From assembly GCA_043228905.1 (NCBI GenBank), contig JBHGNT010000006.1, positions 16,802,001 to 16,866,000 of the forward strand: a DNA stretch of 64,000 nt, written 5' to 3'. The position numbers were made by a program, and so were the translations under genes. Under the pieces are notes generated by a model. It did no database searches and had not been told where the DNA came from. It was given only the letters and a program-made list of their open reading frames with translations. Of this stretch, positions 21,540 through 64,000 are shown in pieces. This DNA is from Azolla caroliniana. Its lineage: Eukaryota > Plantae > Polypodiophyta. How positions within the stretch are numbered: position 1 is the stretch's first letter; the number at the start of each line of letters is the position of its first letter.

Positions 21540-21541
21540 GT

Positions 21542-40045: not shown

Positions 40046-40076
<31 letters not shown>

Positions 40077-40916: not shown

Positions 40917-40940
40917 CTCCGTCCTCTCCCTTGCCGCCTC

Positions 40941-40958
40941 TTCACATCGGGTTCACCA
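40941..40958 (-). promoter_or_regulatory. tRNA-Trp primer-binding site of element N
   Basis: TTCACATCGGGTTCACCA, 17/18 match to the plant tRNA-Trp 3' end TTCACGTCGGGTTCACCA (recalled); 5 nt from the LTR. Confidence 0.85.
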
Positions 40959-40963
40959 AAGTA

Positions 40964-43216: not shown

Positions 43217-46200
43217 TGTTGGAGACAATGTCGTCAATGCGGAAGATCTAGAAGCATTCGATTCTTCTGAATACCTGCGTATGACTGTTTCTATGTCGTT
43301 GCACAGAGAGAGAGTGAGAGAGAGAGACACAAAAGAGTTCTTTATTCATAAACAAGAATACAACAAGCCCAACCTCACAAAGAGGTTACAAGGTCACTAT
43401 ATATAGGGACCGACTTAGGGCAACTGCCCTTTATGCTAATTACATAAATGGCCAGAACGGGATAGTGTGAATACGTCCATTATACACTTGTATTCGACAC
43501 TCCCCCGTAATGGGCGTATACATGGGTTATCTAAGATTACAGGTATAGACTTAGGTTCTCGGACATATCAGCTTTGTTCGAGTCGGCAGGGTCCGAAGGC
43601 AGAAGACCGAACTGGTCGGGTCGGAACAGTTGAAGCCGATCATTAAGGAACTGATGTCGGTTGTCGGGAACCATCCTGCTCTGTGTCCGGCTCTAACCGG
43701 ACTGGTTTGTCGTTACGCCCATCTGATGCCGAAGAGACCGAAAGCGGTCTGCCGAAAGACACTTGGTCATTCCATCTGCGACATTGTTGGTTGTGGATAT
43801 TTTCTCTAGACCGATTTTCCCTGAAATGACGCAGTCCCGAACGAAGTGATATCGAACGTCGATATGTTTGGAGGCGTTGTGGTGAACCGGATTTTTCGAC
43901 AAGGCAACAGCACCTTGACTGTCGCTGTAGACAACTGGAGCCGAGTCATGGTCGACTTGTCGAAACGTGTGCGCCAGCCGACCGAGCCACAAAGCTTCTT
44001 TTGCTGCGTCGGACGCAGCTACATATTCTGCTTCGGTCGTTGAGGTCGCTGTGCACTCCTGAAGTTTCGACTTCCACGAGATTGCTCCATTGCCGAATTT
44101 GAAGCAGTATCCGGTTGTTGATTTCCGACTGTCTATACAGCCGGCGAAGTCCGAGTCAGTGTAACCGACTACGCCTGAGGTTCGGTTCGGACCGAAAAGA
44201 ATGCCGTGGTCTTTTGTGTCAGCTAGATATCTAAACACATGCTTGACTGCGTTCCAATGCGATCGGCCAGGGTTGTGCATAAATCTGCTAACGACTCCTA
44301 CGGCATGAGAAATATCAGGCCGTGTCGCGACCATCAGGTACATAAGGGAGCCGACTGCCGGTGCATACGGTACCGACTTCATATATTCCCCCTCCGGACC
44401 GGATGTCGGGCAGTCTCGCTGAGAGAGCCGAAGATTCATGGGGAGCGGGGTTGAAGCATATTTGGCTGATTGCATGTTGAAGCGTTCCAAGACACGTCCG
44501 ATATAGTCGGTCTGAGACAAAAAAAGATGTCGTTTATCGCGATGCCGACTAATCTTCATGCCAAGTATGTGTCGTGCCGGACCGAGGTCCTTCATGGCAA
44601 ACTTCAACCGCAGTTGCCGAATGAGATCGGCAAGTTCGCCCGCGTGGCGTCCAGAAAGTAGCATGTCGTCCACGTAGATGATGAGGAAGATGGGTGATCC
44701 ATCTTGAGCTGTGTTGGTGAAAAGACAATGGTCCTCATCGCTTTTTGAGAAGCCGATCGATTGGATGAAGTCGTCGAACTTCTTGTACCATTGTCGCGGT
44801 GCCTGTTTGAGGCCGTATAGACTCTTCCTGAGTCGGCAGACTAGATGTTCTTGGCCAGTTGCCACGAAGCCTTTTGGCTGCTCCATATAAATTTCCTCGT
44901 CAAGATCACCATGGAGGAATGCTGTTTTGACATCTAGCTGAATCAGCTCCAAGTTGTCGGCTGCCACTACGCCGAGTAGGAAACGAAGGGTTGTCATTTT
45001 CACCACTGGTGAAAAAATCTCGTCGAAGTCGACGCCGTATTCTTGTCGGAAGCCCTTCGCAACTAGTCTAGCCTTGTACTTTGGGGTGGTCGAATCAGAC
45101 GTCTCTTTTAGTCGATAGACCCATTTGCAAGGAAGAGCACGTCGGTTCCTAGGTAATTCGACCAGATCCCAAGTCTTGTTTGCCCGAATGGAGTGCATTT
45201 CCGACTCCATCGCCAGATGCCAGGTGGCTGAATCGACAGATGTCGATGCTTCCTCGTAAGACGTCGGTTCGCCGGCGTCGGTGAAGAAAATTCCAGGAGA
45301 ATACCTCTCCGGAGGTTGCGACAGTCTCTCGGATCGTCGGGGTATGACTGGACTGGTCGCATCGGGTATCGAGGTCGAATGGTCCGAAAGCGAATCATTC
45401 GGCTGTGCCGAGTCGGAGTTGTCCGAGTCGGGAGTGTAAGGTTCAGCTACCCGTGAAGCTGACCGTGTGTTAAGAGCAGGGCCTTCTTGAAGGGTCGGCA
45501 CATCGGAAAATGTTACCCTTCGGACTTCAATCGGTTTTTCGACTGATGGATTCATAGCCGACTCGTTGAACACAACGTCCGAACTTCGAACGATTTGTCT
45601 GCGTTCGGGGTCCCAGAGTCGGTATCCCATTTCGCCGTCTGATCCATATCCAAGGAAAATGCATTTCCTGGACCGAGGTGCAAGTTTTCGGCGATCATCT
45701 TTCGGAATAAGGGCGTACGCCTCGCATCCGAAGATCCTCAGCTTGTCGTAATTCGGCTTACTGCCGATCCATAGTTCCTGAGGAATTTGAAGTCCTAGAG
45801 GTCTACTTGGCGACATATTGATTATGTGTACTGCCGTGAGTAGAGCCTCTGCCCAGAAGCCATCCGACAGTCCGGAGTGTTGGAGCATGGAAACTATCCT
45901 TTCTTGGATTGTCCTATTCATTCGTTCTGCAATCCCGTTTTGCTCCGGACTGTGTGGTGCCGTAAATTCACGTCGGATGCCGCGTTGTCGGCAGAATTTG
46001 ACGAATTCTTCGGATTTGAACTCTCCCCCATTGTCTGTCCGAAAGCATTTCAGTTTTCGGTCGGTTTGATTTTCTACCATAGCGAGCCACTTTGAGAAGA
46101 TCGAGAAGACCCGATCTTTGGTGCGAATCGGATAAGCCCACACCTTTCGAGTCGAATCGTCAATAAAACTGACGAAGTAAGAGGCACCGCCGAGAGACTG

Positions 46201-48578
46201 ATGCGGCATTGGGCCACAGACGTCCGAGTGGACTAAATCGAGAGGTCTCGTGTCTCTTGGTGCTGATGTCGGGTGTGAGGCGGCTGCTTGTTTGCCATAC
46301 TGGCAATGCTCGCAGAATTGATGGTCCGAGAAGGAGAGTTTAGGGATGTATCCGGCTCTAGATAGGTGCGTAATGCCGGCCTTGCTGAGGTGTCCTAGTC
46401 TTCTGTGCCATAGTGATGACACAGGAATATCCACCAAAAACAGGTTACCCTCTCTGAGCGTAACATGTAACGGATACAGTGAGTGTATCTTGGGTCCTCT
46501 AGCAAGCAGGAGGTTCCCCCTGTGGAGTGTCCACCCTCCCGAAGAAAAACCGGCACGAATGCCGTCTTCATCTAGTTGTCCGACTGAGATCAATGGCCTT
46601 GAGAGCTCGGGTACATGTCGGACATTGTGGAGTACAAGTGTAGAGCCACCTGCAAGGTTGAGCTCTACTGTGCCGATTCCGATGATGTCACAGTGTTGTG
46701 AGTTGCCGACTCGAACTGAGTCGGAGTGACGGATCGTATATTGCCGAAATTGGGATCGATGAGGAGTCACGTGAAATGACGCGCCCGAATCTAAGAGCCA
46801 TGTGCTCGATTCTTCAGTCGTGAGTAGAACTTCTGATCCGACTGGATTTTCGATTGATAGTATATTCGGGTCGTCCGGTAGTACATCAGCTGAGAAGCTG
46901 ACGTAATTGATCTCCTCATGCCGGCCACTCTTCTTGTTGTTCTTGTTCTTGAGTGCGCGGCAGTCGGCTTTGATGTGTCCGGGTTTCTTGCAATAGTTGC
47001 AGATTCGGTTATCCCGTGACTGGCTCCGTCTTCGCTGATTGTTCGGCGGCCGTGAGGAATCTCTACCTCGTATGTTCGATCGGTCTGTCGAACCTTGTAC
47101 TACGTAAGCGTCGTCTGTTGAGTCTTTGGCGAAAGACTTTCTCCGAGCTGCTTCAGTCAGGATTGCGCTCGTGACTTCGGAGTATTTAACAGCCGTGGTT
47201 GACGCGTTGCACACAGTTGTGACAAAAGTTTCCCATGATGAGGGAAGGCTGCTCATGAGTATCATTGCTCTGAGTTCATCCTCGATTGCCGTCCCCTGTG
47301 ACGAGATTTGGGAGCTTATGCTTTCGTACTCATTGAGGTGTGCTTGAACCGAATCAGATTCTTTCATCCGCAAGTTGTAGAGGCGCCGGATCAGAAACAT
47401 CTTCGTTGCAGCGACCTTCTTTTCGTAGGTGTCCGACAGTGTTTTCCACAGTTCGAATGCTGTCGTACACGATTGCACCGTAAAGTATACCGATTCCGAT
47501 AGGTGCATCCGAATCGTGGCGCGGACAATTCTGTCCAGCTTCTGCCACTCAATTGGTTTGTATCCTTCTGGAGGTTCTTCATTTTCGATGGGATCGATCT
47601 GCCCCTTGACTATGAGATAGTCCTGCATTTGTTCCTTCCAGAAGTTGAAGTTCGATCCATCGAACTTTCGTAGACTCATTTCTGACGAGCCGGATGTTGA
47701 TGCCATCAAATTCGGTTTTGGTTGACGAAGCTCGGTTCGGAGTTGACCACGAACCTTGTTGGAGTGCAGCCGGTTGGCTCACCCGATATCGTTGTAGTCG
47801 GATTTGAACCCGAGTCGGTTCGGCTTCGGAACTTGCTCGAATACCGATTATTGAAACCGATTATCTGGACCGATTCTGCTTCGGTTGACTGCAGCAACGA
47901 GAGAGACAGATCCAACTGATCCTCCCGAATGTCGATCAGCCAGATGAAGCACGAATTTGGGTTGTTGTCTTGAGACCGATCTGCACCGAGTGGTTACAAT
48001 GAGCGGCGAGCAGCGTTTGATGACCTCTTCGGATGCCGTTTAACCGAATGGAGCACGATCGTGTCAAAGTTGCACAAGGAGATTTCACCTCGAGCGATTA
48101 CGATCACAAGGAACAGAGTACAACCTGATGGCTTACTCCAAGCAAGAATGATCTAACGCGATGAGATGCAAACCTGGTTTTTCTTCTTCTTCTCTCTTTC
48201 TTCGAATGACGCGAATACTGTGCAGGCCGTGATGAAGTGAAGAACCGAATGCTGTGCAGTCGGTGATGACGGCCGAACCTAGCTCTGATACCAGATGTTG
48301 GAGACAATGTCGTCAATGCGGAAGATCTAGAAGCATTCGATTCTTCTGAATACCTGCGTATGACTGTTTCTATGTCGTTGCACAGAGAGAGAGTGAGAGA
48401 GAGAGACACAAAAGAGTTCTTTATTCATAAACAAGAATACAACAAGCCCAACCTCACAAAGAGGTTACAAGGTCACTATATATAGGGACCGACTTAGGGC
48501 AACTGCCCTTTATGCTAATTACATAAATGGCCAGAACGGGATAGTGTGAATACGTCCATTATACACTTGTATTCGACA
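43217..48578 (-). mobile_element. Intact young Ty1/copia element D
   Basis: TSD CAATC at 43212-43216 and 48579-48583. Identical 283-bp LTRs at 43217-43499 and 48296-48578. iMet PBS at 48282-48293. PPT at 43500. Confidence 0.98.
43693..47709 (-). CDS. gag-pol: Copia D Gag-Pol polyprotein, 1338 aa, uninterrupted
   Basis: CNYCKKPGHIKADC, WLLDSGASFH, LWHRRLGH..CEHC, HSDVCGP/TDNGGEF/NGIAER, IYVDDML, YTDSDFAG. Confidence 0.97.
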   Translation of the reverse strand: MMASTSGSSEMSLRKFDGSNFNFWKEQMQDYLIVKGQIDPIENEEPPEGYKPIEWQKLDRIVRATIRMHLSESVYFTVQSCTTAFELWKTLSDTYEKKVAATKMFLIRRLYNLRMKESDSVQAHLNEYESISSQISSQGTAIEDELRAMILMSSLPSSWETFVTTVCNASTTAVKYSEVTSAILTEAARRKSFAKDSTDDAYVVQGSTDRSNIRGRDSSRPPNNQRRRSQSRDNRICNYCKKPGHIKADCRALKNKNNKKSGRHEEINYVSFSADVLPDDPNILSIENPVGSEVLLTTEESSTWLLDSGASFHVTPHRSQFRQYTIRHSDSVRVGNSQHCDIIGIGTVELNLAGGSTLVLHNVRHVPELSRPLISVGQLDEDGIRAGFSSGGWTLHRGNLLLARGPKIHSLYPLHVTLREGNLFLVDIPVSSLWHRRLGHLSKAGITHLSRAGYIPKLSFSDHQFCEHCQYGKQAAASHPTSAPRDTRPLDLVHSDVCGPMPHQSLGGASYFVSFIDDSTRKVWAYPIRTKDRVFSIFSKWLAMVENQTDRKLKCFRTDNGGEFKSEEFVKFCRQRGIRREFTAPHSPEQNGIAERMNRTIQERIVSMLQHSGLSDGFWAEALLTAVHIINMSPSRPLGLQIPQELWIGSKPNYDKLRIFGCEAYALIPKDDRRKLAPRSRKCIFLGYGSDGEMGYRLWDPERRQIVRSSDVVFNESAMNPSVEKPIEVRRVTFSDVPTLQEGPALNTRSASRVAEPYTPDSDNSDSAQPNDSLSDHSTSIPDATSPVIPRRSERLSQPPERYSPGIFFTDAGEPTSYEEASTSVDSATWHLAMESEMHSIRANKTWDLVELPRNRRALPCKWVYRLKETSDSTTPKYKARLVAKGFRQEYGVDFDEIFSPVVKMTTLRFLLGVVAADNLELIQLDVKTAFLHGDLDEEIYMEQPKGFVATGQEHLVCRLRKSLYGLKQAPRQWYKKFDDFIQSIGFSKSDEDHCLFTNTAQDGSPIFLIIYVDDMLLSGRHAGELADLIRQLRLKFAMKDLGPARHILGMKISRHRDKRHLFLSQTDYIGRVLERFNMQSAKYASTPLPMNLRLSQRDCPTSGPEGEYMKSVPYAPAVGSLMYLMVATRPDISHAVGVVSRFMHNPGRSHWNAVKHVFRYLADTKDHGILFGPNRTSGVVGYTDSDFAGCIDSRKSTTGYCFKFGNGAISWKSKLQECTATSTTEAEYVAASDAAKEALWLGRLAHTFRQVDHDSAPVVYSDSQGAVALSKNPVHHNASKHIDVRYHFVRDCVISGKIGLEKISTTNNVADGMTKCLSADRFRSLRHQMGVTTNQSG

Positions 48579-48909
48579 CAATCATGCCCGGCTTGGTCCT
48601 TGCCCACTCTGGTAACCTCGTCCGCTCCGGTAACTAACTCCTCGCCGCCACCCGCCGTCTCTCCAGTCTTACGTTGATCCACAACCGTCGAAGTCTCTAG
48701 AATAGGTGTGGAGGGTCCCGCCCGTTTCCGGTCTTTCATGGAACCGTAGTCGTAATGCCTGCTTGGCCTCCTTCTTCCACTCATTGGCTCCCACCATGTG
48801 TTGCAACTCTTCTTCCCCGATCTCCAATCATGTTGGCTTGGTCCTTGCCCAGTTCGGTCCCGACCGATCATGTTCGGGTTTGCTCGGCTTCCTTCCATAT
48901 GTCATGATA

Positions 48910-48972
48910 TGGCAAGACTCGAACCGATGACCTTAGGTTATACGGGTCGAGCTCTTGACCATTAGACCATCT
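48910..48972 (-). ncRNA. tRNA-derived Pol III A/B-box module in the T2 LTR (antisense)
   Basis: Minus strand reads TGGTCTAATGGTCAAGAG...AAGGTCATCGGTTCGAGTCT; A box start 48969, B box start 48925. Confidence 0.65.
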
Positions 48973-49044
48973 ATTGTAATACGTAGGATATTATTTTCAT
49001 TTATATTTTATTATAGGAAATTAGTGTATATTCCAGATTTCTCT

Positions 49045-49090
49045 GGAACATTCTAGAAGCTTCAGGATTACTCCTGAAAACACTATAAAA
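49045..49090 (+). promoter_or_regulatory. Perfect 4-unit heat-shock element and TATA box in the T2 LTR
   Basis: gGAAcaTTCtaGAAgcTTCa (49045-49064) and TATAAAA at 49084; repeated in the 3' LTR. Confidence 0.8.
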
Positions 49091-49410
49091 GAGGGCACTA
49101 GGAATTATGTTGAACCAAATTGGTTCAACGCCAGTCTTAAGCCTTTTAGCCACCATTGTATATTCTCTTCATATAATACATATCTTTCTTATCATCACTC
49201 TCTCTCTCTCTCTCGATCTCTCTCTTTCTCTCCGTCTCGCTCACTCCTTCCTTCTCTCGAAGAAGTTCTACACCTCTCATAGTACTAATCCTTCGTTTAG
49301 CACTAATTCCTTCTCTGTCTCAGTACTGTTCCTGACAGTTTGAACCAATTTGCCTACCTTCTATCTCTCTCATTTCCTACTAATCTCTTATTCCTCTTTT
49401 CTTTCATCCC

Positions 49411-52400
49411 ATGGCCACTGTTAGCGCTGAAGAATATTAATCTGTTTTCTCGAAATTTCAATGCTTGAAAGAGAATTTCCATGCTTTGGAACAAGAAAAC
49501 CAACGGTTGCTGGGGGATCTTCAGCAAATCTCCTTAGAAAAGCAGCAAACGCAACAACAGCATGGGGAACTTGCGTTACGCGTGCAACAACTCAAAGCAA
49601 CCATCGTAGCGATGCAACAACAAGGGCCCGGAACACAAGGGATTCATAAAGAACCCAAGATTGGCCTTCCCACGAAGTTCGATGGAACGCGATCGCAGTT
49701 TAGAGGGTTCCTTAACCAGGTACGATTAGTTATCCAAATGCATCCTTCCCGATATCCCACCGATGCATCACGAGTGGGTTTAGTAGGCACTTTGTTAAGT
49801 GGCTCAGCGTTGTCATGGTTCGCTCCACTATTAGAAAAGGAATCTCCGTTACTCAACAATTTTGAAGAGTTTCTAGGTGAGTTTAAAGCATGTTTCGGAG
49901 ATACTGACAGCATCAGGACCGCAATCAACAAAATTCGACGATTATTCCAAGGTGACTGTCCAGCCTCCGCATACGTTGCAGATTTTCGCCTTCTCGCCGC
50001 CGATATCCCTTGGGATGATCAAGCGTTGATGGAGCAATTCCGTTATGGTTTACGCAACGACGTCAAGGATTTACTCTTGACCTTCCCCGAAGAGCCAAAG
50101 TCCTTAACAGACGCAATCAGTCGCGCGATGAGATGTGACAACCGCCTCTTTGAGCGACGTTCGGAAAGACAGCTACAGATGCCGAGGCCAAGATCAGAGC
50201 CCACCTATGCCTCAGTGGTAGCAAGACCTTTTCCGAGGGAGTCATATAATGCGCCTCCAGCGAATACTCCGACTCCGATGGAGATTGACACTACACGTCG
50301 TCAAGGGCCATTATCCGAAGAAGAAAAGCAGCGACGCCGTACAAATCGACTATGTCTTTACTGCGGTGGACCAGGACATATCGCAATAAATTTCCCCCAT
50401 AGGCCAAGAAGACAGGTAAACCAAATAGTCGCTAGTTCTAATTGTACTAAACCCGAGCCTATTTCAGTAGGGATATCTGATAGTCCTAATAGTAAACAAA
50501 TTTGATGTCCTTAGTCAGTTAGAAGAAGAGTTAAACGACTAAGTCCAGCCAAAATAGGAGCCGTTTGGTTGGACAGCCCTAGATCTGTGTAGCCCATTAG
50601 TGGTTCCATTCCCTCTAAGCAAGTTAGTGATGTGTTCGTAGCCCAAGTAATAGTTAGTACTAAAAGTACCCCTCCAGTACATGTCCTAGCACTCCTAAAT
50701 TCCGGAGCTAACTCTTGCTTTATGGATAAGAAATTTGTTCAAGCTCATAAGATATACCTAAGAAAACTCCAGTGTCCAGCCTCTGTAGTAGTCATTGATG
50801 GACGTCCCATTGCTTCCGGAAATATCATAGAAGAGTCAAAGCCCATTAATATTGTCCTAGATAACTTAGCATGTGTAGCATCATTTAATATTATTAGTAT
50901 CCCAGAACATCCTATAGTTTTAGGATTACCGTGGTTCGAGTTACATAACCCAGACATAGATTGGAGAACAAGAGAAATCCGATGTCGACAAACCCAAGGG
51001 ACAACTCAGAAGATGGCAACCATTTCGCTACGTCAGTTGCGTAAAGAAGGGTGCGAGGAGGAAATGTTCCTCTTTGCAATATCAGTAAACCCCTCCAGCA
51101 CCACTAAAGAAGAATCCACCGTTCAACTTCCCGAGAAGTATTGTCATTACGCCGATGTGTTCGATAAAGTACAAGCCAACACACTTCCTCATCATCGACC
51201 GTACGATTGCCCCATCGATTTACAACCGGGAAAAGAGCCGCCATGAGGACCGATCTACAATTTGTCACCAACCGAGCTGGAAGTCCTTCGGGCCTATATC
51301 GAGGAGAATTTGGAAAATGGTTTCATTCGACATTGGAAATCTCCAGCCGGCACGCCCATTTTCTTCGTCAAGAAAAAAGATGGATCGCTTCGTCTCGTTG
51401 TAGATTACCGCGGCTTGAATAAGGTTACAATCAGGAATAGGTATGCTCTTCCCCTTATCTCAAGTCTTTTAGAACGGATCAATGGTGCCAAGTTCTTCAC
51501 GAAGATCGACTTACGGGGAGCATATAACCTCGTACGGATCCGACCAGGAGACGAATGGAAGACCGCGTTTCGCACCAGATATGGGCACTTCGAGTATACG
51601 GTCATGCCGTTCGGCCTCACTAATGCACCGGCAGTCTTCCAGCACATGGCTAATGATATATTCCGAGATCTATTGGATGATTGTTTGAACATCTATTAGT
51701 ACTAATACGACTATTCCGAGATCTATTCCGAGATCTATTCTCATGTACTATTAGTACTAATACGACTTCGAGAACATGGTCTGTATGCAAAGCTGGAAAA
51801 ATGTAGTTTCGGGTGCAACCAAGTGGAATTTCTCGGCTACATCATTTCATCAAAAGGCATCTCCATGGACCCAGCTAAGGTCAAAACGGTGGTAGAATGG
51901 CAAACTCCGCGTTCGGTGCGGGATGTGCAATGCTTCCTAGGCTTTGCCAATTTTTACTAGAAGTTCATACAAGATTACTCAAAGATCGTTCTACCTCTCA
52001 CACAACTTACCAGGAAGGGACAACCGTTCATCTGGTCTGAAGAAACGGACATGGCTTTCGAGAGTCTTAAAAAGTCATTTACATCGGCTCCAATTCTAGC
52101 TCATGTCGATCCGGAAAAAGCATTCATTATCGAAGCTGACGCATCGGATTTTGCATTGGGGAGCATTCTGTCACAACAGGGGAATGATGAGAAGCTACAT
52201 CCTGTGGCTTTTCACTCACGCAAGTTTGACACCGCCGAAATTAACTACGAAATTCATGATAAGGAGCTATTGGCAATAGTGGATTCTTTTATGCAATGGA
52301 GGCATTTTCTGGAGGGATCCTCTCATCCAGTCACCGTATTTAGTGATCACAAGAATCTTGCCTACTTTCAGGATGCTTGCGTGTTGAATCGACATCAAGC

Positions 52401-54120
52401 TCGATGGGCCCACTTCCTCACGCGTTTCGACTTCAAAATTACATATCGTCCAGGGAAGCACCAAGGGAAGGCAGATGCATTATCACGACGTTCGTATCTA
52501 GCACCCCGTCCTGGCGAGCCAGCTTTCGATAACCAAAAACAAGTCATCTTGGGACCGGCACAACTACAAGCAACACATATCTTTGACATGCCCATGGATT
52601 CCCGCGTTATCGATACCATACGTGAAGACTTGAAGACAGATGCGTTTGCCCAAGCTATACTAGCACAAATTGATCCCTCTCGAGCGTCGTCTTCACAGTC
52701 GCAACCACCAGGTACGGACTATCGGCAATTCAAATACCATGATGGATTACTCTTCTTTAAAGAACTTTTGTATGTTCCTAATGGTTCTTGCCGCCTTCGA
52801 GTTGTTCAAAACTGCCATGACACATATACAATTGGGCATTTTGGTAGTACTAAAACATTACATTTAGTACAACGATCATTCTGGTGGCCCTGTATGCGAC
52901 AATTTGTCGAGGATTTTGTTCGGACTTGTGATACATGTTGCAGAGCGAAAATGCCAAGGCATCATCCATATGGTTTATTAGAACCATTACCAATTCCAAG
53001 CAAGCCGTGGCATTCCATTGCTCTAGACTTCATCACAGATCTTCCAGTCTCTAAGGGGTTCAATGCAATTCTAACGGTGGTTGATCGATACACGAAGATG
53101 GCTTATTTCTTGCCATGTACTAAGGAGATCTCCAGTGAAGACACTGCCGAAATTGTCATGCGTGAAGTATGTCGACATCATGGACTTCCCGATAGTATCA
53201 TCAGCGACCGTGGACCCCAGTTCGTGTCAAAATTCTGGAAGCACCTTTTTAACATGCTCAAGGTCTCTTGTAACCTCTCCTCCGGCTACCACCCACAAAC
53301 CGACGGCCAAGCTGAACGAACAAATCAAACGCTGGAGCAGTGTCTGCGGTGCTTTCTCAGTTATCATCAGGACGACTGGGCAGATATTCTCCACTTCGCC
53401 GAATTTGCCTATAGCAACTCTATCCACGCATCCACTAAAGTTACGCCATTTTATGCTTATACGGGATGTCACCCTCGGTGGAGTGTACTTGAAACCCCAA
53501 AGGTGTCCACAAATCCGTGCGCGGAGGATCGTTTGGAGCGGTTATGCAAGATACAAGCGGATTTATCTACTCATCTCCAGCAAGCTCAACAAACACACAA
53601 GGTCTACGCGGATCGTCATCGACTTCCATCCAGTTTTAATATTGGAGATCGGGTGTGGCTGCTACGATGACACATCAAGACTACTCGCCCATGTGAGAAT
53701 TTGGATTATCGGCGATTAGGTCCTTTCCGTATTATTGGACAGATTAATTATGTCGCTTTTCGTCTCGATCTACCTCCTCAACTTCGGATACATCCAGTGT
53801 TTCATAGTTCTCTCCTTGAACCCTACCATGAGAGCACCATCCCAGGACGTCTTATCCAACCTCCACCCCCGATCAAGCTTGAAGATGGGCCGGAGTACGA
53901 GGTTGCCGCCATCCTTGATTCCAAGATTGTTCGCAACAAGCTCTACTATCTAGTCGATTGGCTAGGCTATAGTCCCAGCGAACGTACTTGGGAACCGATC
54001 GATAATGTGACCAATGCTCGTGCTCTTCTTGAAGACTTCCATCGTCAATATCCACACAAATCGGGTCCTCAATCCAAGACGACTCGTGACACTCGTCGTT
54101 TTAAAGGGGGGATAGTGTAA
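49411..54120 (+). pseudogene. gag-pol: T2 gag-pol with multiple stops, protease DSG>NSG and loss of RT YLDD
   Basis: ORFs 49465-50505, 50632-51246, 51262-51699, 52051-53670 and 53701-54120; chromodomain EYEVAAILDS..YLVDWLGY. Confidence 0.92.
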
Positions 54121-55653
54121 TGTTATGGCAAAACTCGAACCCATGACCTTAGGTTATATGGGTCAAGTTCTTGACCATTAGACCATCTATTGTAATACGT
54201 AGGATATTATTTTCATTTATATTTTATTAGAGGAAATTAGTGTATATTCCAGATTTCTCTGGAACATTCTAGAAGCTTCAGGATTACTCCTGAAAACACT
54301 ATAAAAGAGGGCACTAGGCATTATGTTAAACCAAATTGGTTCAACGCCAGTCTTAAGCCTTTTAGCCACCATTGTATATTCTCTTCATATAGTACATATC
54401 TTTCTTATCATCACTCTCTCTCTCTCTCTCTCTCCGTCTCGCTCACTCCTTCCTTCTCTCGAAGAAGTTCTACACCTCTCATAGTACTAATCCTTCGTTT
54501 AGTACTAATTCCTTCTCTGTCTCAGTACTGTTCCTGACACCATAATCGTAATAGCCGATAAGGGTTTGGCCGAACACTTCCGGTCTTACCAACTCTTCTT
54601 CGGTTCAGGCCTGGTGGACCGGCCCCCACTTCATTCTTTTCCCAGTTCGCCTTCCTATCGGGTCGATTCCTAACTCTCTCCTTGTTGCCGCTCTCGGCCT
54701 CCCCTTTAGTCCTTTTGTATATACCTGTTCCAGGCCTCGCATCCTCCTCTTCGTTTTGGTCACCCGCCCTGCCACTGCCATCGTTTGTCAGTCTAGGTCT
54801 CATGCCAGCTCTCGGGCCGGATGTCAGAGTCTCTAGAGCCAGTGCGGGTAAGATCTTGGCACCGCCGCTCGTTATGTCCGTACCCACCTCCATCCGGACG
54901 TCATTGTTCGTGGCTGTTGTACGTTGTCGGGATATTACGCAAGTGCGTGTGAAAATGAGGCGGGACCGCGGGGGTCTCGAACCAAAGAGCAAGCAAGGGA
55001 GGAGAAAGAGAGAGAACCGGCTACGCAGGACCGGGGATACGCAGGGACACGGCCCTTCAGCACGGAGAATGCGAACAGACACCGACACAGACAGATGCGA
55101 ATGACTAAATATGTGTATTAACAAAAATTGGCTAACACGACTACAACCCTCGATGGGGCACAGGTTGGTTACAACCGAACAGGCCGGCGAACAGATGCCG
55201 ATGCCTGTTCGCTTCGACGCACAAACGGGGTAGCAGGCCGGAGGTGCTGCCGGAAGCACTCGGCGTTCCTCGAAACAGCGCGAGCCTCCTCGGAACCCTG
55301 CACAGAAGCTATGGAGCTCGAGAAGGAAGGAAACACAGAGAGAGAGAGAGAGAAGCGTCCAGAAACAGTCCGGCAGCACTTCGTCCTCTCCGCGCGAGAT
55401 CCCTTCTCCTATTCTTCCTCTTCCTTTTATATCCCGTTAAGAGGCCGTTTGGCATTAACTGCATATCAACCGAATCTACCCACCTAGGATCCTCGTATGT
55501 ACTCTTGGCGCGCGTGTGTATAGAGCCGTTTCCCACGCCTTGTTCCTCCGATTCCTCTTGTGGGCGGTTTTCTTCACGACATCCGCCCCCACCTAACCGC
55601 GCATCCACCGGTATGCGCCAAATTAAGTTGGCACGGAGGAAACCGGCCCGCCT

Positions 55654-58600
55654 TTACTCTTCGCCTGCCGGCCCTTCCTCGGCCTCGGATCGGTCGTCGC
55701 TGCTGTCTAGGAGAATTGGGTCGGGTTCGTCGTCGTGCCGCTTCTTGAAAGCTTTGATCCTCTTCCCGGCCACGGGTATCGCTATTCTCGTACCGTCGAG
55801 TTCTGCCAGATGATACGTCCCGTTGTCGTTGGCGCTCTGTACCGTGTACGGCCCGAACCATCTCTGTGCGAACTTCCGCGTTGCTCGGTGCTGGTTGTCG
55901 AGGCTGCTGTCGTAGACGAGCACCCAGTCACCTTCGTCGATTTTCTTCGGTCGTAGCCGGTGCGTTCGGTCGAACCGGGCTTTGTTCTTTGTCCTCGCCA
56001 CCCGGAGCTTCTCTGTAGCCAGTGCCACGTCCTCCGGTCTCCGCTCGAGCTGTCGTATACGCGCGGCCAACAACTCCTCCCGGCTCATCTCGTCCCTCCA
56101 GTCGACCGTTGCCCACGAGGAGATCGTCCGTTCAATCGGCATGATCGGCTTCTGGCCGAACATGAGCTCTGTCGGCATGTACCCGGTTACCGAACTGTGC
56201 GTGGTCCGGTCTGCCCACAAAGCATAAGGTAGGAGCCGCGGCCAGTCACCGATTCGGCCTCCGCATGCCCGAACCAACGCCTTGACGATCGGTCCGTGTC
56301 CGCGCTCCACCTTTCCATTCGCCTCCGGATTGTACGCAGTGGTGAGCGAGAGCTTGACCCCCAGCCGGTCGAACAGCTCCGCGGCTTCTTCGGCGTCCAA
56401 CTCCCCTCGGTCAGCCACGATCTTCCCGACGCACCCGTACCGGCATACCACGTCCTCGATCAGGAACCGACACACGGCCGCGGTCGTCTTGTTCTGAAGG
56501 GCTCGGCCTTCCACCTGGTTCGTCAGGTCTTCCCGCGCTAGGACCAGATACCGCATCTGTCCTACCCCCATCGGCATCGTCACCAGATCTACCATCCATT
56601 TGAAGTGGATAGTCGGAGGGTACGTAGGGCGAAGCCCGTCCCGGTGTCGGACTATCGAGTGCATCTGACAACTCTCGCAAGTCGACACGAACCGATGCAC
56701 GTCCCGGTACAATCCCGGCCACCAGTACTTCCCCTTCAGCTTTTCAAATGTCGCCCACGTTCCACGGTGTCCAGCCCAAGGGCTGTCGTGGTGGGCCGCC
56801 AGTAGCTCCTCCTGTTCTTCCTTCATTGCCACCACCCGGAGCGGGACGCCGTTCCTCTTCTTCGGGTGCTTCCACAAATGCCCATCTCGGAGAAAGAATC
56901 GATATGCTCTCTTCCGGATCCGGTTGGCCTCGTCCTTCGTCCATGACGCATCGGGCGTCATTGTCTTCAAAAACCCGCCGATCTGCAGCCACTCCCCGTC
57001 GTACTTGCTCGCGTCGAACTCGTTAAGCGCCGGAGTGCTCATCCCGTCGGTCGTTATGTATGCCGCCTCGAAGAAATCCACGCCGACTTCTTCGTCTTCC
57101 GAAACCATGCCGCCCTCGTCGTCGAACCTCGCCCTCGAAAGCATGTCGGCCATGGCGTTGTCTTTCCCGGAAATGTGTCGTATTTCCGGGTCCAGGGACT
57201 TGACGTACGCTATCCACCTGAGCATCGCCAGGTCCGGGGTCGCGCATCCGGAAACCATACCGAGAATCGGCAGGCAATCCGTCTCGATGATCACTTCTGT
57301 CCCTATCAGGTAATCTTTGTCGGCCTTAACCGCCGAAACAATACCCCAGAGTTCGCGTTTAACCTGGGCGTATCCTCGCTGTCGTTCACTGAGGACTTTC
57401 GCGCCGAATCGGATCGGAAACCGATTGCCGTCCTCGTCTTCCTGGTTCACGACCCATCCGATCCCGGTCGGACTGGTATCCACCGTTATGAATACCGGGG
57501 TGCCCTTCCCGTATACCGCCTTCCGGAGTGCCGGTGCCGCTGCAAGGGCCTCTTTCAGCTTCCGGACCGATTCCGCGTGCTCGTCTAGCCATTCGAACCT
57601 TCGCCCCTTTTTCAGCAACCCGTACAGTGGCTCCGCGACGTGTGCGTAATGCGGGATCCATATGTGGTAGAACGCACATGCCCCCAGGAATCTCCGTACT
57701 TCCGTGACCGAGCTGCAGTCGGGCTTCATCGCGGAGATGGCTTCTACCTTTGCCGGAGACGGTTTCCGGCCATATGGTCCGCACAGGTGTCCGACCACCA
57801 TGATTTCTGACTGCCCGAAGGCCGACTTCTCCCCGGAGAAGGTGAGTCTCGCATCCTCTAGCCTTTGCAGCACCTTCTCGCAGTCGTCGATGTGCGTCGC
57901 CACGAATCGCCGGCATCCGTCCGGCCCGATCGTCTCGTCCCTTTCTTCCACCGGGCATCCCTTGATCGGGATGTCGTCCAGAAACGGCATGGTGATGTCC
58001 GGGATACAGTCCCTCAGAACCTTGTTCATCGCATTCACCATGTGGGCCACCGAGTTGGTCCCGCCTTGCGGCAGTGTACACATCCGAACTAGGCCGAGGG
58101 GAGTTCGCATCGTCGTAATGTCTCTGCTCTCCACGGCTAGCTGGAACTGGTCGTACCCTGAGTATAGATCCCCGACCGAGTAAATTGACCTTCCGGCGAA
58201 GGCCTCCGCGAACTCGTCTATGGTCGGTCCGATCCCTGCGTTCCGAATGGTCACTCGATTGACCGGCTGCAGGTCCTGGATGAAGCGCAACGAACCGTTT
58301 TTCTTCGGTACGGTAAACCATCGATTCGAATATGGGGCGCTCGACGGCTCGAGAATTCCCATATCAACTTTCTGCCTCAGCAGCTCCATCAACTTCGGGA
58401 TGTGAGCTCTCGGAACCGGGATTGGCTTGAGATTCCATGGTACATGCGGCACCGTGAATATCACCATCGGCTCCACGATCGTCGGGTCAACGCACCCGAT
58501 TTCCTCCGGCGAGAATGCGAAGGCTTTCCCGTGCCTTCCGAGCATTCTCCGAAACCGGTCTTCCTCCGCCGGCAGTAGGAACCCGCCCCCACCGATTTTG

Positions 58601-59145
58601 AGCTCTCGGAGCGTCTCGTCGGTGAAGGTGTGTCCTATGCAGGCCGGATCTCGTAGACTAGGGTCCGATGCAACCCCTTTGATTCTCGACGCGCTGTCCT
58701 CCGGCAGGGGTGCCGCGACTGGCCTTACCTTCCGGTCCACAGTCTTGTACTTGGTGCTTACGTGGGCCGTCCGAACTGACTCGAGCCCTCGACCGAAGTC
58801 CGCGATGACTCCGTACATCTCCTCGGAACACACCGGTATCGTCCGGTCTTCGTTAAGGCCTTCTTCGACTACCTTTCCCAGCATTCCCAAGGTGTCGTCG
58901 AACGAGACCGCCTCCACGGCTCCGTTGATTTCCTCATCCGGGCTGAGAACTCCGCACGCTCGAAGTCTCCCCTCCGCCTTCGTCTTCTCTCGGCCGCCGA
59001 CGCCGACTATCGTACACGCTCCGCTGCCGGAGAACAAAAATTCCCTACCTACGGTACAAGTTTTCTTCGGTTTTATCATACAGGTGTGGGGTTTTCCCGG
59101 GGTGTCCGGACTGTCGCGGCCCCACGCCTTGGCAGCCCTCTCTAA
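55654..59145 (-). CDS. pol: Element P Pol (RT-RNase H-integrase), probably expressed by -1 frameshift
   Basis: DLYSGYDQ, LPQG, FLDD, VDTSPTGIG, HHCC (H..H..CESC), VDL/ADRG/KVERGH and WFGPY. The frame is open upstream to the slippery site. Confidence 0.93.
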   Translation of the reverse strand, partial: LERAAKAWGRDSPDTPGKPHTCMIKPKKTCTVGREFLFSGSGACTIVGVGGREKTKAEGRLRACGVLSPDEEINGAVEAVSFDDTLGMLGKVVEEGLNEDRTIPVCSEEMYGVIADFGRGLESVRTAHVSTKYKTVDRKVRPVAAPLPEDSASRIKGVASDPSLRDPACIGHTFTDETLRELKIGGGGFLLPAEEDRFRRMLGRHGKAFAFSPEEIGCVDPTIVEPMVIFTVPHVPWNLKPIPVPRAHIPKLMELLRQKVDMGILEPSSAPYSNRWFTVPKKNGSLRFIQDLQPVNRVTIRNAGIGPTIDEFAEAFAGRSIYSVGDLYSGYDQFQLAVESRDITTMRTPLGLVRMCTLPQGGTNSVAHMVNAMNKVLRDCIPDITMPFLDDIPIKGCPVEERDETIGPDGCRRFVATHIDDCEKVLQRLEDARLTFSGEKSAFGQSEIMVVGHLCGPYGRKPSPAKVEAISAMKPDCSSVTEVRRFLGACAFYHIWIPHYAHVAEPLYGLLKKGRRFEWLDEHAESVRKLKEALAAAPALRKAVYGKGTPVFITVDTSPTGIGWVVNQEDEDGNRFPIRFGAKVLSERQRGYAQVKRELWGIVSAVKADKDYLIGTEVIIETDCLPILGMVSGCATPDLAMLRWIAYVKSLDPEIRHISGKDNAMADMLSRARFDDEGGMVSEDEEVGVDFFEAAYITTDGMSTPALNEFDASKYDGEWLQIGGFLKTMTPDASWTKDEANRIRKRAYRFFLRDGHLWKHPKKRNGVPLRVVAMKEEQEELLAAHHDSPWAGHRGTWATFEKLKGKYWWPGLYRDVHRFVSTCESCQMHSIVRHRDGLRPTYPPTIHFKWMVDLVTMPMGVGQMRYLVLAREDLTNQVEGRALQNKTTAAVCRFLIEDVVCRYGCVGKIVADRGELDAEEAAELFDRLGVKLSLTTAYNPEANGKVERGHGPIVKALVRACGGRIGDWPRLLPYALWADRTTHSSVTGYMPTELMFGQKPIMPIERTISSWATVDWRDEMSREELLAARIRQLERRPEDVALATEKLRVARTKNKARFDRTHRLRPKKIDEGDWVLVYDSSLDNQHRATRKFAQRWFGPYTVQSANDNGTYHLAELDGTRIAIPVAGKRIKAFKKRHDDEPDPILLDSSDDRSEAEEGPAGEE

Positions 59146-61268
59146 AAATCCTCTCGGTTATCGGAACCGAGGGAGTTGCGGTTACGCTCGTGGTTCGGCC
59201 TGACCGTCAAAAACTGGACCGAATGGCGCCCGTCCTGGCTCTTGACCCGCGCATAGGCCGAACCGTTGTCCAGCACCTTGGTCTCCATTCGAGCCGCCGT
59301 GATGTACGGTTCTCCCAGTATGACGGGGTGCGATGACGACTCCTGCACGAAGAAGTGCTGGTCTATCTCGACATCGCCGATCTTGACCCGTACATTCGGG
59401 CAGGCCCCGTGAAGTTCCTCGGTGGCGCGCGTTGCTGCCCTTATTTTCCACCCGTGCTTGGTGTTGATCGGCCATTTGCCCTTCTTATAGAAGTCCATGG
59501 ACATCAAATTGATCTCCGATCCGTGGTCCACCAAAGCTATCACCGGTTCCTGGACATCGCCGATCTTCACCGGGGTTTCCGTGGTCGCTCGGGCCCAGTG
59601 TGGTCTCGAATAGTGGCTTTCCGCCCACTCGTCTCCCAGCGCCATGTCGTCTAGGTGCGTCGTCCGCACTTCCACCGGTCTTTCCGGTTCTGTCTCCGTC
59701 GACAGCCTCTTCCGTTTCACCAAGTCCACGATGGAGTCGTGGAACTCCTTCTTGGCGATTCCCAGCACCTCCCGTAACGACAGCTCCACCTTGCTGTCGA
59801 GGATCCGTTCCTCCAGGACCTTTCGTAAGTCCGTGGTTCTTTCTATCTCCGTCCCCAGACGGTACCCGCCCTTCTGGGGTTTATCTCGCGTACCGGCCCC
59901 GCCGGCTTCGTCCCGTCGCGGCCCGGACCGGGTCTCGTATCGTTGTGAGGGCCCGGTCGTCCCGGGTTTCCCCACCCGCTTCTCTTCTACCAGAGCCTCG
60001 TAGTTCCGGCAAGCGGCTTCCATGAAGCCCGTCTTCTCCTCGACCGGGTCGCTCCACCCGGTCATCTCCCGTACCCGTTTCTCCGCACGGTCCGATTCCT
60101 CCCTTTTAAGCCCTGCACCGGCAAGGCCTCCCAGCATCGTCGGCCAGAATCCGGCTTCGCTTTCACTTCGGGCCTCGCCACCCCCGACTCGAATGCCGGC
60201 TGACGCCGAGTAGTGGACGGTTTCCGCGTGTCGGGCCGCCGCCTCTTCCATCAACCTTTTCATACCACCCTTTCCGTCGTTTCGGCTCAGGGCCCTTCGG
60301 GTGTCGCTGGCATGCACCCGTCCTTCCCACAGGTACACCACCCTGTTCCTCAGCGCCTCCGCGAAGTCGTCGCAGTCCTTCCGAATGTGGCCGACTTCAT
60401 CGCACCACATGCACCTGTTTCCTGCCGCCGGCCGTCGGTCACGAGCCGGTTCGCCTCCTTCCCTTCGGGCCTGCGCGATTTGGAGGTCCTTTATCGCCTT
60501 CGTCAATTCCTCCAGCGCCGCTCCTCCGGTTGAGCCTGTGACTACGCCGGTCGAAGCCGAACCGGTTTCCAACCACTCTCCGGTCCCTTCCTTTCGCACC
60601 CGTGGCGCTGGTTCGAACTTCCTTGCTGCGACCGAGCCCGACCCGGTCGCACCGTCATCCGCCCATTCTCGCCGTTTGTCGAAACGGCCACAGACCTTCC
60701 TGACAGCCGCCCAGTCGGTAGTGAGCCCGTCTTCGGTTTCTAGCAGGGCGCCCACGTGACTCCGATCCCTCTCGTCAACCGATTTGACGAACAGCAGGAC
60801 CCGGCTTGTATCCAGGACCATCCTGTCAAGCGCCGAAAGGCGTGCGAAGTTCTCCTCGAACTCCCGGAGGAGTGCCGAAGCGTTTCTTCCCTTTCCCGGG
60901 GACTCCACCCATTCCATGAACCTTCGCTTCGAAAGCCGGAGCGCGTCGTCCAGCCCGTATTTCTCTAGGAGCCGACCTTCGAACTCCTCCCAGGTACGGC
61001 TCTCCGTCCGTACCTCGAGCACCTCCGCATGGATGCTCGGCATCGCTACTCGGGGAAATCCGGCCAGACGCCTTTCTTCCGGAATGTCCCGCATCAGCAT
61101 CTCTGCACCGTAGGACGCCAAATACTTCGTGGCATCCTTCCCATCGAACCGGCCGATCGTGCCGACGACCGCCTCAATAGCTCTGTCGAGGGCACCGGTG
61201 CTCTCGCGCGCGTTTACAATCCGATCCACGGCCGAAGCCATGGCCTCTGCGAGATCCGACCCCCTCAT
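59142..61268 (-). CDS. gag: Element P Gag-protease ORF
   Basis: CMWCDEVGHIRKDC knuckle; protease-like ALVDHGSEINLM...VILGEPY. First ATG at 61268 (the ORF track starts at a GTG inside the PBS). Confidence 0.9.
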   Translation of the reverse strand: MRGSDLAEAMASAVDRIVNARESTGALDRAIEAVVGTIGRFDGKDATKYLASYGAEMLMRDIPEERRLAGFPRVAMPSIHAEVLEVRTESRTWEEFEGRLLEKYGLDDALRLSKRRFMEWVESPGKGRNASALLREFEENFARLSALDRMVLDTSRVLLFVKSVDERDRSHVGALLETEDGLTTDWAAVRKVCGRFDKRREWADDGATGSGSVAARKFEPAPRVRKEGTGEWLETGSASTGVVTGSTGGAALEELTKAIKDLQIAQARREGGEPARDRRPAAGNRCMWCDEVGHIRKDCDDFAEALRNRVVYLWEGRVHASDTRRALSRNDGKGGMKRLMEEAAARHAETVHYSASAGIRVGGGEARSESEAGFWPTMLGGLAGAGLKREESDRAEKRVREMTGWSDPVEEKTGFMEAACRNYEALVEEKRVGKPGTTGPSQRYETRSGPRRDEAGGAGTRDKPQKGGYRLGTEIERTTDLRKVLEERILDSKVELSLREVLGIAKKEFHDSIVDLVKRKRLSTETEPERPVEVRTTHLDDMALGDEWAESHYSRPHWARATTETPVKIGDVQEPVIALVDHGSEINLMSMDFYKKGKWPINTKHGWKIRAATRATEELHGACPNVRVKIGDVEIDQHFFVQESSSHPVILGEPYITAARMETKVLDNGSAYARVKSQDGRHSVQFLTVRPNHERNRNSLGSDNREDF

Positions 61269-62916
61269 CTTCTGCTCTTCTGCCGCCTCTTTCACGTCGG
61301 GTTCACCAAATATGTCGGGATATTACGCAAGTGCGTGTGAAAATGAGGCGGGACCGCGGGGGTCTCGAACCAAAGAGCAAGCAAGGGAGGAGAAAGAGAG
61401 AGAACCGGCTACGCAGGACCGGGGATACGCAGGGACACGGCCCTTCAGCACGGAGAATGCGAACAGACACCGACACAGACAGATGCGAATGACTAAATAT
61501 GTGTATTAACAAAAATTGGCTAACACGACTACAACCCTCGATGGGGCACAGGTTGGTTACAACCGAACAGGCCGGCGAACAGATGCCGATGCCTGTTCGC
61601 TTCGACGCACAAACGGGGTAGCAGGCCGGAGGTGCTGCCGGAAGCACTCGGCGTTCCTCGAAACAGCGCGAGCCTCCTCGGAACCCTGCACAGAAGCTAT
61701 GGAGCTCGAGAAGGAAGGAAACACAGAGAGAGAGAGAGAGAAGCGTCCAGAAACAGTCCGGCAGCACTTCGTCCTCTCCGCGCGAGATCCCTTCTCCTAT
61801 TCTTCCTCTTCCTTTTATATCCCGTTAAGAGGCCGTTTGGCATTAACTGCATATCAACCGAATCTACCCACCTAGGATCCTCGTATGTACTCTTGGCGCG
61901 CGTGTGTATAGAGCCGTTTCCCACGCCTTGTTCCTCCGATTCCTCTTGTGGGCGGTTTTCTTCACGACAACGTTTTAGGGTTAGGGTTAGGGTTAAGGAC
62001 GATGATGATTATCAATGACAAAGATAGACATGGCGTAATAGCGAAGATAATGGAGAGTATGATGGTAAGAGAGATTGGCATGAAGATGTTGAGAATCGTT
62101 GAGAAGCATTGTGGGGTGGGGGGTGGTGCCTAGAATGGCTCCACCCTCCTCCCAAGGGGGTTCAACGTTAAGGGGAGGGAAGAGAGAGAGAGAGAGATGA
62201 AAAGAGAGATAGATAGAGAAAAATGATTCATTCATATTTCATTCATTCCCCATAAGGGGTTAAATAGTTCAAGAGGGGGTAGATACATAGGGGTGTAAGC
62301 CCCCTCGAGCATTCATACTGGACACTCACTCACACCTCCTCGTATCCATCCGCATGCACACACGTGTGCATGTGTTCACATACGTATAGACTCACAATTA
62401 CATTTATGTCCCCTACACATACACAACAACATCATGATAACATTCGACCCTCGCTCATCGCACTGACTCTCCGTACATCTCGTACGGGGTAACAGTGGCT
62501 ACCCCATCTCCGATCACGGAAGCGTCGATTACCCTTGCCTCCTCCTCTTCCTCGATCTCCTTGTCGTCGTCTTGGTTGCCCGCCTTGCCACCGCCACCAT
62601 TCATCACTCTAGGTCTTACACCGGTTGTCGGGTCGGACGCCAAAGCCTCTAGAATCGGTGTGGGTAAGGTCTGGGCACCACCGCTTGTCTCCTCCCCGCT
62701 TGATGTTTCGGGCCATCGTGTCCCGAATCCTCAGCCCACTCTCGAAGTGGCGCTCCTCACTTCGTCGTCACCGGCCTCATCCATGGCCGTCCCTTTTCCA
62801 CAAGACGAGAGGCTCGCTTGCTTCGCACCCTCTCCAACGTTGTCGCCATTACACGCTCTTCCGGCCTCCGCATAGGCCCCATTGTCCACGTATAGGGAGG
62901 CTTCTTCCCCTAAAGA

Positions 62917-64000
62917 TGTCGCGATATTCCACGAGCGCGTGTAGGATCCGAGGCGGGACCATAGGGGTCTTGAACTAGGGAGTTGAGGAGAAGGAATAAG
63001 ACACGAAATGGAAGCTTAGCTCAAGAGGAGAGGAGAATGAATATGACATGAAAATTGAACAAGATATGGATGGAGGCAAAATACTCAACAAGTTATATTA
63101 AGAAAACACAAACGAATACAACCATGGCGGCATAAGCCAAAACCCAACGACTACAAGAAACCCTAACCGAATAAGTAAAGTGAAGAAGATGAATAAGGAA
63201 ACCCTAAGAGAAACCCTAACCCTAAACCAAAATGGGAAAAAGAAGAACCCTAGAACTATGTGGTATACCTTTCACACTCAAAATAGGCAACCCCTTCACA
63301 AGTGACCCCTCCCTTCCTTTTATAGCCCAAGGAGGGAGGGACCTTACAATGTGGGATAAATTTCTCCTCTTTATTCTATACACCATTTTACATTGTAAGT
63401 GTGCACATGTTGCACACCGCCGACTTGCCCATTCTATCCCCGTTTCACACCGTAGCCGGAAATCTTCACGACATCCACCCCCACCAAACCGCACATCCAC
63501 CGATTTCGGCTACGGTGATCAACCGGGTCCTCCGCCGTCCCAGCACCCGACCGCCTCGCCGGCTCCTACTGACCCCGATCCGTCGAATCCATCCGATCCA
63601 TCAGGTCCACCGCGTGTCCCCAAACCACCAACTCCATCCGATCCTCCATATCCGACGTTCGTGCCTTCCTCGGACGCCGTTGTCGACCCGGCCACTCCGA
63701 CTTTCTTCGCCATGTATGCCCTTTGATTGGGGCCCCGGTCACTTCGGTTGTACGCCAGATTCTATGCCTTGTGTGCCGTGTATGTCCCTCCGTCGGTTTG
63801 ATCGTCTTCGCGTCCCGAACACTTCCACGTGCCAACTCTCTCCGCTCCGCGCTCGCCTTCCGCAGGCTCTTCCCGTGTGCCATTATCGTTCCCCGAATGC
63901 GTGATCGTTCTTCGGTCCTTAGGCCACCCCATTACACGCTCCTCGCTTCCCCCTTGCTTGTCGTGCTCTCTCGTCGTAGAGTGTACCATCATACCAACCT
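62917..64000 (-). mobile_element. Element N unit 3: LTR 62917-63416 plus adjacent internal region (continues beyond the window)
   Basis: TGTCGCGATATTCC...GTTGCACA (500 bp); 63417-64000 is colinear with 41779-42360. Confidence 0.82.

What the first reader, a model, noticed from the sequence alone, without database searches (positions are those of the whole stretch)
54921..54924. Apparent CpG-centred target-site preference (NCGN) of TGTCG-type elements with 4-bp TSDs
Seen: element P has TSD ACGT; solo LTR 38061-38873 has TSD ACGC; the P-related LTR at 21542 is preceded by ACGT; the N array at 29981 is preceded by ACGG. All four have CG at the two central positions. The 5-bp TSDs of the copia, chromovirus and other insertions (ACTTT, CAAAA, CTCCT, CAATC, CCATA, GGATC, GTGGC) do not. 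Inference: this chromodomain-less integrase may recognise (methyl-)CpG directly, a different route into heterochromatin. n is small, and only two sites have both TSD copies visible.
Basis: partly seen in the sequence, partly recalled or inferred. Interest (0 to 1): 0.72.

Follow-up and report, generated by a model that had tools for sequence, protein, structure and literature searches.

The report
Phygy-like retrotransposons that insert at CG
These jumping genes, likely from a moss or liverwort, land with a CG pair at the centre of their four-base target far more often than chance, a real habit already published for the moss Phygy lineage that they likely belong to; whether they sense methylation is untested.

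Summary
Element P (54925-61969, identical 657-bp LTRs) has ACGT on both sides and the solo LTR (38061-38873) ACGC on both sides; 21542 and 29981 show one side only (ACGT, ACGG). Outside the window, 18 of 23 curated outer LTR flanks in related metagenome contigs are CG-centred against 0.73 expected (P about 1e-24), and three of the five exceptions have CG in homologous empty sites. None is TA-centred, so this is CG specificity rather than general bendability. It is not new: Neumann et al. 2019 print 'NCGN' as the 4-bp TSD of all 186 Phygy elements of Physcomitrella. P matches Phygy in TSD, primer site and lack of chromodomain or extra RNase H. It is slightly shorter than their size range, and I could not place it on a tree with labelled Phygy sequences. 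CG-centred 4-bp targets are also known for Drosophila ZAM and Ginger1. The likeliest mechanism is recognition by the integrase itself at the sharply bent centre of the target.

The parts
54921..54924 (.). Left TSD copy of element P, ACGT (the finding's coordinates)
61970..61973 (.). Right TSD copy of element P, ACGT
54925..61969 (-). Element P: complete 7,045-bp non-chromovirus Ty3/gypsy retrotransposon, very recent (LTRs identical)
54925..55581 (-). 3' LTR of P, 657 bp
   Evidence: read contigs begin at 54925 and end at 55581
61313..61969 (-). 5' LTR of P, 657 bp, 0 differences from the 3' LTR
61291..61308 (-). Primer-binding site, 4 nt inside the 5' LTR; same 18-mer as the published miR894/gypsy PBS complement; assignment to tRNA-Trp is recalled
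55582..55596 (-). Polypurine tract of P
59142..61268 (-). Gag-protease ORF (zinc knuckle, DUF4100)
55654..59157 (-). RT-RNase H-integrase ORF in the -1 frame; integrase ends in an SH3-like barrel and acidic tail, no chromodomain
38057..38877 (+). Solo LTR 38061-38873 with TSD ACGC on both sides, inside a copia coding region; LTR of the family of locus L019 (same primer site, pol 63% identical to P)
   Evidence: 88-92% identity over its length
21538..22045 (+). ACGT followed by a truncated LTR starting at 21542, related to the LTR of locus L070 (65% over 392 nt); right end approximate, right TSD lost
29977..64000 (-). ACGG followed by the N array: defective relatives sharing LTRs (starts at 29981, 40965, 62917), interrupted by other elements; far end outside the window
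54915..62494 (.). Older solo-LTR-like element with 5-bp TSD GTGGC; P sits 6 nt inside its left end

Best explanation
P, the solo LTR, the 21542 LTR and the N array are relatives that likely belong to the Phygy lineage of bryophyte Ty3/gypsy retrotransposons; they insert with a 4-bp duplication centred on CG, and the integrase itself likely picks that CG without needing it methylated. Shown: the 4-bp duplication at two window sites, the CG-centred flanks (18 of 23 outside the window; refined pattern [ACG]CG[TCG]), the shared primer site, and an integrase made only of zinc-finger, core and SH3-like domains. Inferred: the paired active sites cut 4 bp apart, which needs a sharp kink at the central step as in foamy-virus intasomes; a pyrimidine-purine step allows the kink, and base-specific contacts narrow the choice from any such step to CG, as with the ZAM integrase. 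Accumulation inside older transposons would then follow from selection, from CG-rich young transposon DNA, or from chromatin factors not visible here.
For: [quoted passage not shown] Closest named proteins are from the liverwort Riccia sorocarpa (62% over 93% of pol). Own test: 80 related loci; 41 of 80 carry P's primer site (37 exact); outer flanks at <=2 mismatches to the termini library are CG-centred in 18 of 26 raw and 18 of 23 curated, expected 0.73, P 1.4e-24; CG at eight other offsets 0-2 of 22-23. Three exceptions have CG at homologous empty sites. No TA centre in 23. T first or A last in 1 of 46 strand-symmetrised sites, the same avoidance reported for 4-bp-TSD retroviruses (PMC4422553). 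Best solved relatives of the integrase are PFV integrase (E 6.5e-21) and Ty3. ZAM integrase binds its CGCGCg target directly in vitro (PMC2527525); Ginger1 makes CCGG/CCGT TSDs (PMC2836005).
Against: No experiment on this integrase; independence from methylation is argued by analogy (that Drosophila nearly lacks CpG methylation is recalled). No labelled Phygy sequence could be placed in the tree, and P at 7,045 bp is under the published Phygy range of 7,656-9,968. The extra flanks are one-sided, from short-read contigs of collapsed repeats (L014 has different 4-mers at its two ends), mostly from assemblies with neighbouring record numbers, so they are not 23 independent genomes. With looser matching the fraction falls (18 of 29 at <=3, 21 of 56 at <=4 mismatches); many added hits lie in coding regions or lack a full terminus, but I did not curate them one by one. 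One curated site (L043, TAGG) is unexplained and one (L045, ATGT) has no empty-site homologue.
Confidence: 0.66

Rival explanations
1. The integrase prefers methylated CG: 5-methylcytosine at the central step favours capture or kinking, which steers the element into silenced transposon DNA without a chromodomain.
For: A review states that cytosine methylation created strong target preferences for avian retroviral integration in vitro (PMC11054761; the original 1992 paper was not held). All four window targets lie in other retroelements. CG transitions between LTR pairs are raised (8 of 274 against 8 of 1150 CHH, P 0.005). Many flanks are CpG-poor (pooled o/e 0.76 in 22 flanks). Phygy is reported nested in Tcn1 in Physcomitrella and enriched at predicted centromeres of a liverwort.
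Against: No methyl-binding family at E<=1 in the integrase. The window is all transposon, so location shows nothing. The CG transition excess disappears without one LTR pair (3 of 231 against 8 of 1048, P 0.43). Flank o/e runs from 0.35 to 1.08. CG-centred targeting is known in ZAM and Ginger1 with no methylation invoked in the passages read.
Confidence: 0.17
2. A host protein that binds CG or methyl-CG chromatin tethers the integration complex, and local bendability does the rest.
For: Tethering explains regional targeting of many retroelements; the integrase has a free acidic tail.
Against: Tethering gives regional bias, not a base-exact palindromic centre: CG sits at one offset only.
Confidence: 0.08
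3. Only general pyrimidine-purine flexibility is selected, and CG merely looks dominant in GC-rich DNA.
For: Retroviruses with 4-bp TSDs enrich central YR steps by about 63%.
Against: 0 of 23 sites are TA-centred and 2 of 23 TG/CA although most flanks are AT-rich with CG at 1-3%; one of those two has CG in its empty-site homologue.
Confidence: 0.06
4. Chance, or junctions chosen to fit.
For: Only two window sites are two-sided (0.064 for any shared dinucleotide).
Against: Termini outside the window were defined from primer site and polypurine tract before any flank was read; P 1.4e-24; independently published for 186 elements.
Confidence: 0.01

Closest known systems
Phygy lineage, non-chromovirus Ty3/gypsy of Physcomitrella patens (Neumann et al. 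2019, PMC6317226; passages, section 9 and Additional file 5 read)
   Same: 4-bp TSD with NCGN, tRNA-Trp-type primer site (tRNA identity recalled), no chromodomain, no extra RNase H, coding region filling the interior, bryophyte relatives
ZAM subgroup of Drosophila errantiviruses (PMC2527525 abstract and Discussion; PMC5408687 passages)
   Same: Ty3/gypsy integrase with a CG-centred palindromic target; integrase binds the target directly in vitro
   Different: Longer consensus (CGCGCg), env-bearing animal lineage; not shown related to P beyond the superfamily
Ginger1 DNA transposons (PMC2836005, passages)
   Same: Gypsy-like integrase, 4-bp TSD with central CG (CCGG 75%, CCGT/ACGG 24%), TGT ends
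   Different: DNA transposon with inverted repeats, no RT or LTRs, animal hosts; first base mostly C whereas P-lineage sites favour A (ACGT commonest)
Prototype foamy virus and other 4-bp-TSD retroviruses (PMC4422553, abstract and two sections)
   Same: 4-bp stagger, central pyrimidine-purine step, avoidance of T first and A last; best PDB match to P's integrase
   Different: Weak preference for any YR step rather than near-strict CG
TatI lineage (PMC6317226, Additional file 5)
   Same: 4-bp TSD and tRNA-Trp primer
   Different: TatI always carries an extra archaeal-type RNase H, not detected in P, and no NCGN motif is listed

Membership tests
Ty3/gypsy LTR retrotransposon | LTRs with TG...CA ends, PBS, PPT, domain order PR-RT-RH-INT | tested here: met
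Phygy | 4-bp TSD | tested here: met
   two two-sided sites
Phygy | NCGN target motif | tested here: met
   4 of 4 in the window, 18 of 23 in related loci
Phygy | PBS complementary to tRNA-Trp | tested here: inconclusive
   PBS found and conserved in 41 of 80 loci and equal to the published miR894/gypsy PBS 18-mer; that this is the 3' end of plant tRNA-Trp is recalled, no tRNA gene was available
Phygy | No chromodomain, no extra (archaeal) RNase H, no extra ORF | tested here: met
   Pfam scans; model (low overall confidence, mean pLDDT 58)
Phygy | Length 7,656-9,968 bp (descriptive range in one species) | tested here: not met
   P is 7,045 bp; a species-level range, not a lineage definition
Phygy | Grouping with Phygy RT/RH/INT domains in REXdb (the formal definition) | not testable with these tools
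   Additional files 1 and 3 too large to read; quick tree shows only one group of P, 30 loci and 5 Riccia proteins apart from chromoviruses
Chromovirus (Tcn1 and others) | Chromodomain after the integrase; mostly 5-bp TSD | tested here: not met
   RT core 26-29% identical to the window's chromoviruses
TatI | Archaeal-type RNase H domain | tested here: not met
   only the single RT-linked RNase H found at E<=0.001
Methyl-CpG-guided integrase (proposed class) | Preference for methylated over unmethylated CG | not testable with these tools
   no methylome or in vitro data; indirect signals weak

The most novel reading that the evidence does not exclude
The Phygy-type integrase reads 5-methyl-CG at the centre of its target and so reaches silenced DNA without a chromodomain or host tether: a retrotransposon guided by DNA methylation itself.
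Probability: 0.17. Interest if true: 0.7.

Novelty: new member of a known kind. Interest (0 to 1): 0.2.

Why it matters
The motif is published, so the finding adds little beyond showing that NCGN holds across many related families (RT core 70-98% identical to P) outside Physcomitrella and narrowing it to [ACG]CG[TCG]. Its practical value is that P looks intact and very young (identical LTRs, open frames), so it is a usable source of a sequence-selective plant integrase for the one open question: whether methylation of the CG matters. If it did, it would give a chromodomain-independent route to heterochromatin.

Tried and rejected
No whole genome is held for this window, so the genome-wide TSD logo could not be built. 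Laying read contigs on the LTR (4 runs; 2 runs) confirmed the LTR borders but showed too few loose ends to count targets; only one contig showed ACGT before a variant LTR start. The viral collection held no relative (54 pattern matches, none confirmed). Cluster look-ups and a gag search gave no organism names beyond Riccia, so no Physcomitrella protein could stand in for Phygy. No tRNA gene in the window or 31 of the 80 loci. The AlphaFold model of the whole pol protein is poor (pLDDT 58, pTM 0.32); I used only its secondary structure for the integrase tail and ran no fold search. The tree is the quick version; the careful search did not finish. The LTR start at 62917 (flank TCTT) looked like a counter-example but aligns with the spacer and a decayed primer site, so it is an internal junction. 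A fungal or flowering-plant host was considered and dropped. Passages of PMC12810828, PMC6839031 and PMC7466625 gave nothing on this motif. Searches found no test of methylation dependence for Phygy; the library lacks most subscription papers.

Full report
Setting. The window is a nest of LTR retrotransposons: copia elements, three chromoviruses and a non-chromovirus Ty3/gypsy lineage. CG makes up 5.78% of dinucleotides, observed/expected 0.98. No whole genome is held. The closest named relatives of P's pol protein are from the liverwort Riccia sorocarpa (62% over 93%); unnamed metagenome proteins reach 80%. The host is likely a moss or liverwort (inference).

The observation. P spans 54925-61969 on the minus strand, with two 657-bp LTRs that have no difference and ACGT on both sides. 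The solo LTR 38061-38873 has ACGC on both sides. Neither duplication extends to five bases. The LTR at 21542 is preceded by ACGT and is truncated; the N array at 29981 is preceded by ACGG, starts TGTTG, and runs off the window. Four of four CG centres have probability 1.1e-5, or 2.7e-4 allowing any shared dinucleotide; the two two-sided sites alone give 0.003 and 0.064.

Are the four one lineage? P encodes gag-protease and, in the -1 frame, RT-RNase H-integrase. The solo LTR is 88-92% identical along its length to the LTR of locus L019, which has P's primer site and a pol 63% identical to P's. The 21542 LTR matches the LTR of L070 (65% over 392 nt; pol segment 80%). The N array has P's primer site at its 40965 LTR. 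So the grouping rests on more than the shared ends.

Independent test. A scan of metagenome contigs gave 241 pattern matches, 163 relatives, and the best 80 as loci. I defined LTR ends from the primer site and polypurine tract only (36 and 31 termini), searched all loci and the window, and then read the flanks: 85 internal and 67 outer hits, 11 of the outer ones in the window. In the loci, 18 of 26 outer flanks at up to two mismatches are CG-centred. I dropped three (L030, a primer site cut by the contig end; L038, a duplicated terminus beside the primer site; L044:7049, the same site as L043:7143), leaving 18 of 23 against 0.73 expected from local CG content (P 1.4e-24); at eight other offsets CG occurs 0-2 times. 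Looser matching gives 18 of 29 and 21 of 56. Of the five exceptions, L064 (ACAG) has ACGG at the homologous empty site in the window's chromovirus, L065 (CCTT) has CCGT in 28 of 65 homologous hits including the four closest, and L039 (ACTT) has ACGC and ACGT in two of three; L045 (ATGT) fits CG decay but has no homologue; L043 (TAGG) is unexplained. No site is TA-centred. T first or A last occurs in 1 of 46 symmetrised sites. Limits: these flanks are one-sided, from collapsed short-read contigs, and probably from few samples.

What is known. Neumann et al. [quoted passage not shown] Jedlicka et al. 2019 (PMC6911290, passages) report GC-rich centres in 4-bp plant TSDs and Phygy nested in Tcn1. 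P agrees in TSD, missing chromodomain and missing extra RNase H. Its primer site equals the published miR894/gypsy PBS 18-mer (PMC5846777, passages); that this is tRNA-Trp is recalled. P is about 600 bp shorter than the range. The files with Phygy sequences and individual TSDs were too large to read, so formal membership is untested; a quick tree shows P, 30 loci and five Riccia proteins as one group far from the chromoviruses.

Mechanism. The integrase has the zinc finger, core and an SH3-like tail, no methyl-binding family at E up to 1, and its best solved relatives are foamy-virus integrase and Ty3. For retroviruses with a 4-bp stagger the target is kinked at its central step, which favours pyrimidine-purine steps and disfavours T first and A last (PMC4422553, abstract and two sections). 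P's lineage shows the same outer avoidance but a far stricter centre, so base-specific readout of CG is the likeliest addition (inference). Precedents are ZAM, whose integrase binds CGCGCg in vitro (PMC2527525, abstract and Discussion; PMC5408687, passages), and Ginger1 with CCGG/CCGT TSDs (PMC2836005, passages).

Methylation. For: a review says cytosine methylation created strong integration targets for an avian retrovirus in vitro (PMC11054761, passage; original not held); CG transitions between eight LTR pairs are 8 of 274 against 8 of 1150 for CHH, P 0.005; flanks are somewhat CpG-poor, pooled o/e 0.76; Phygy is enriched at predicted centromeres in one liverwort (PMC12885004, passages). 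Against: the transition excess vanishes without one pair (P 0.43), flank o/e runs from 0.35 to 1.08, the window has no non-transposon DNA for contrast, and decay shows that the region is methylated, not what the integrase saw. Searches found no test for Phygy. I put the methyl reading at about 0.17.

Earlier scan notes. One unchecked note (e1-10582392) describes NCGN TSDs in a fungal window and says the habit was not found in print for retrotransposons; Neumann 2019 does print it for Phygy. It led me to Ginger1.

Verdict. A real and strong CG-centred target preference, in likely new members of the Phygy lineage for which it is already published. Interest 0.2; the only open and interesting part is methylation dependence, which needs an experiment.

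Noticed in passing
window 59142-59151, minus strand; 45 loci: The heptamer GGATTTT sits directly before the gag-protease stop codon, where the RT ORF overlaps in the -1 frame; the same heptamer is at this place in 40 of the 45 loci examined, the rest having GGATTTC or GGTTTTT. Likely a -1 ribosomal frameshift between protease and RT rather than between gag and protease; Neumann's table lists Phygy organisation as not determined.
   Followed up: partly
window 61291-61308: P's primer site is the exact complement target of the abundant plant small RNA annotated as miR894, which may be a tRNA 3' fragment able to act on this lineage.
   Followed up: partly
window 29981-64000: The N elements form a tandem array sharing LTRs; the middle LTR (40965-41835) is a chimera of two LTR types. 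Tandem LTR-retrotransposon structures are described in PMC11899658 (passages).
   Followed up: partly
window 54915-62494: P landed 6 nt inside the end of an older solo-LTR-like element (TSD GTGGC) that continues with a few TTAGGG-like units at 61974-61995.
   Followed up: partly
window 22307-22311 and 28101-28105: Chromovirus with identical 473-bp LTRs but a TSD whose copies differ (CGGCA/CAGCA), a CG to CA change in one copy.
   Followed up: no
window 33739-40404: The copia LTR pair has 6 substitutions, 5 at CG and 1 at CHG, a much stronger methylation-type signature than the other seven pairs.
   Followed up: no
L025:565, L065:1488, L034:192: P-lineage LTRs inserted into the coding or leader regions of their own lineage (auto-insertions), in each case at CG-centred positions or their homologues.
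   Followed up: partly
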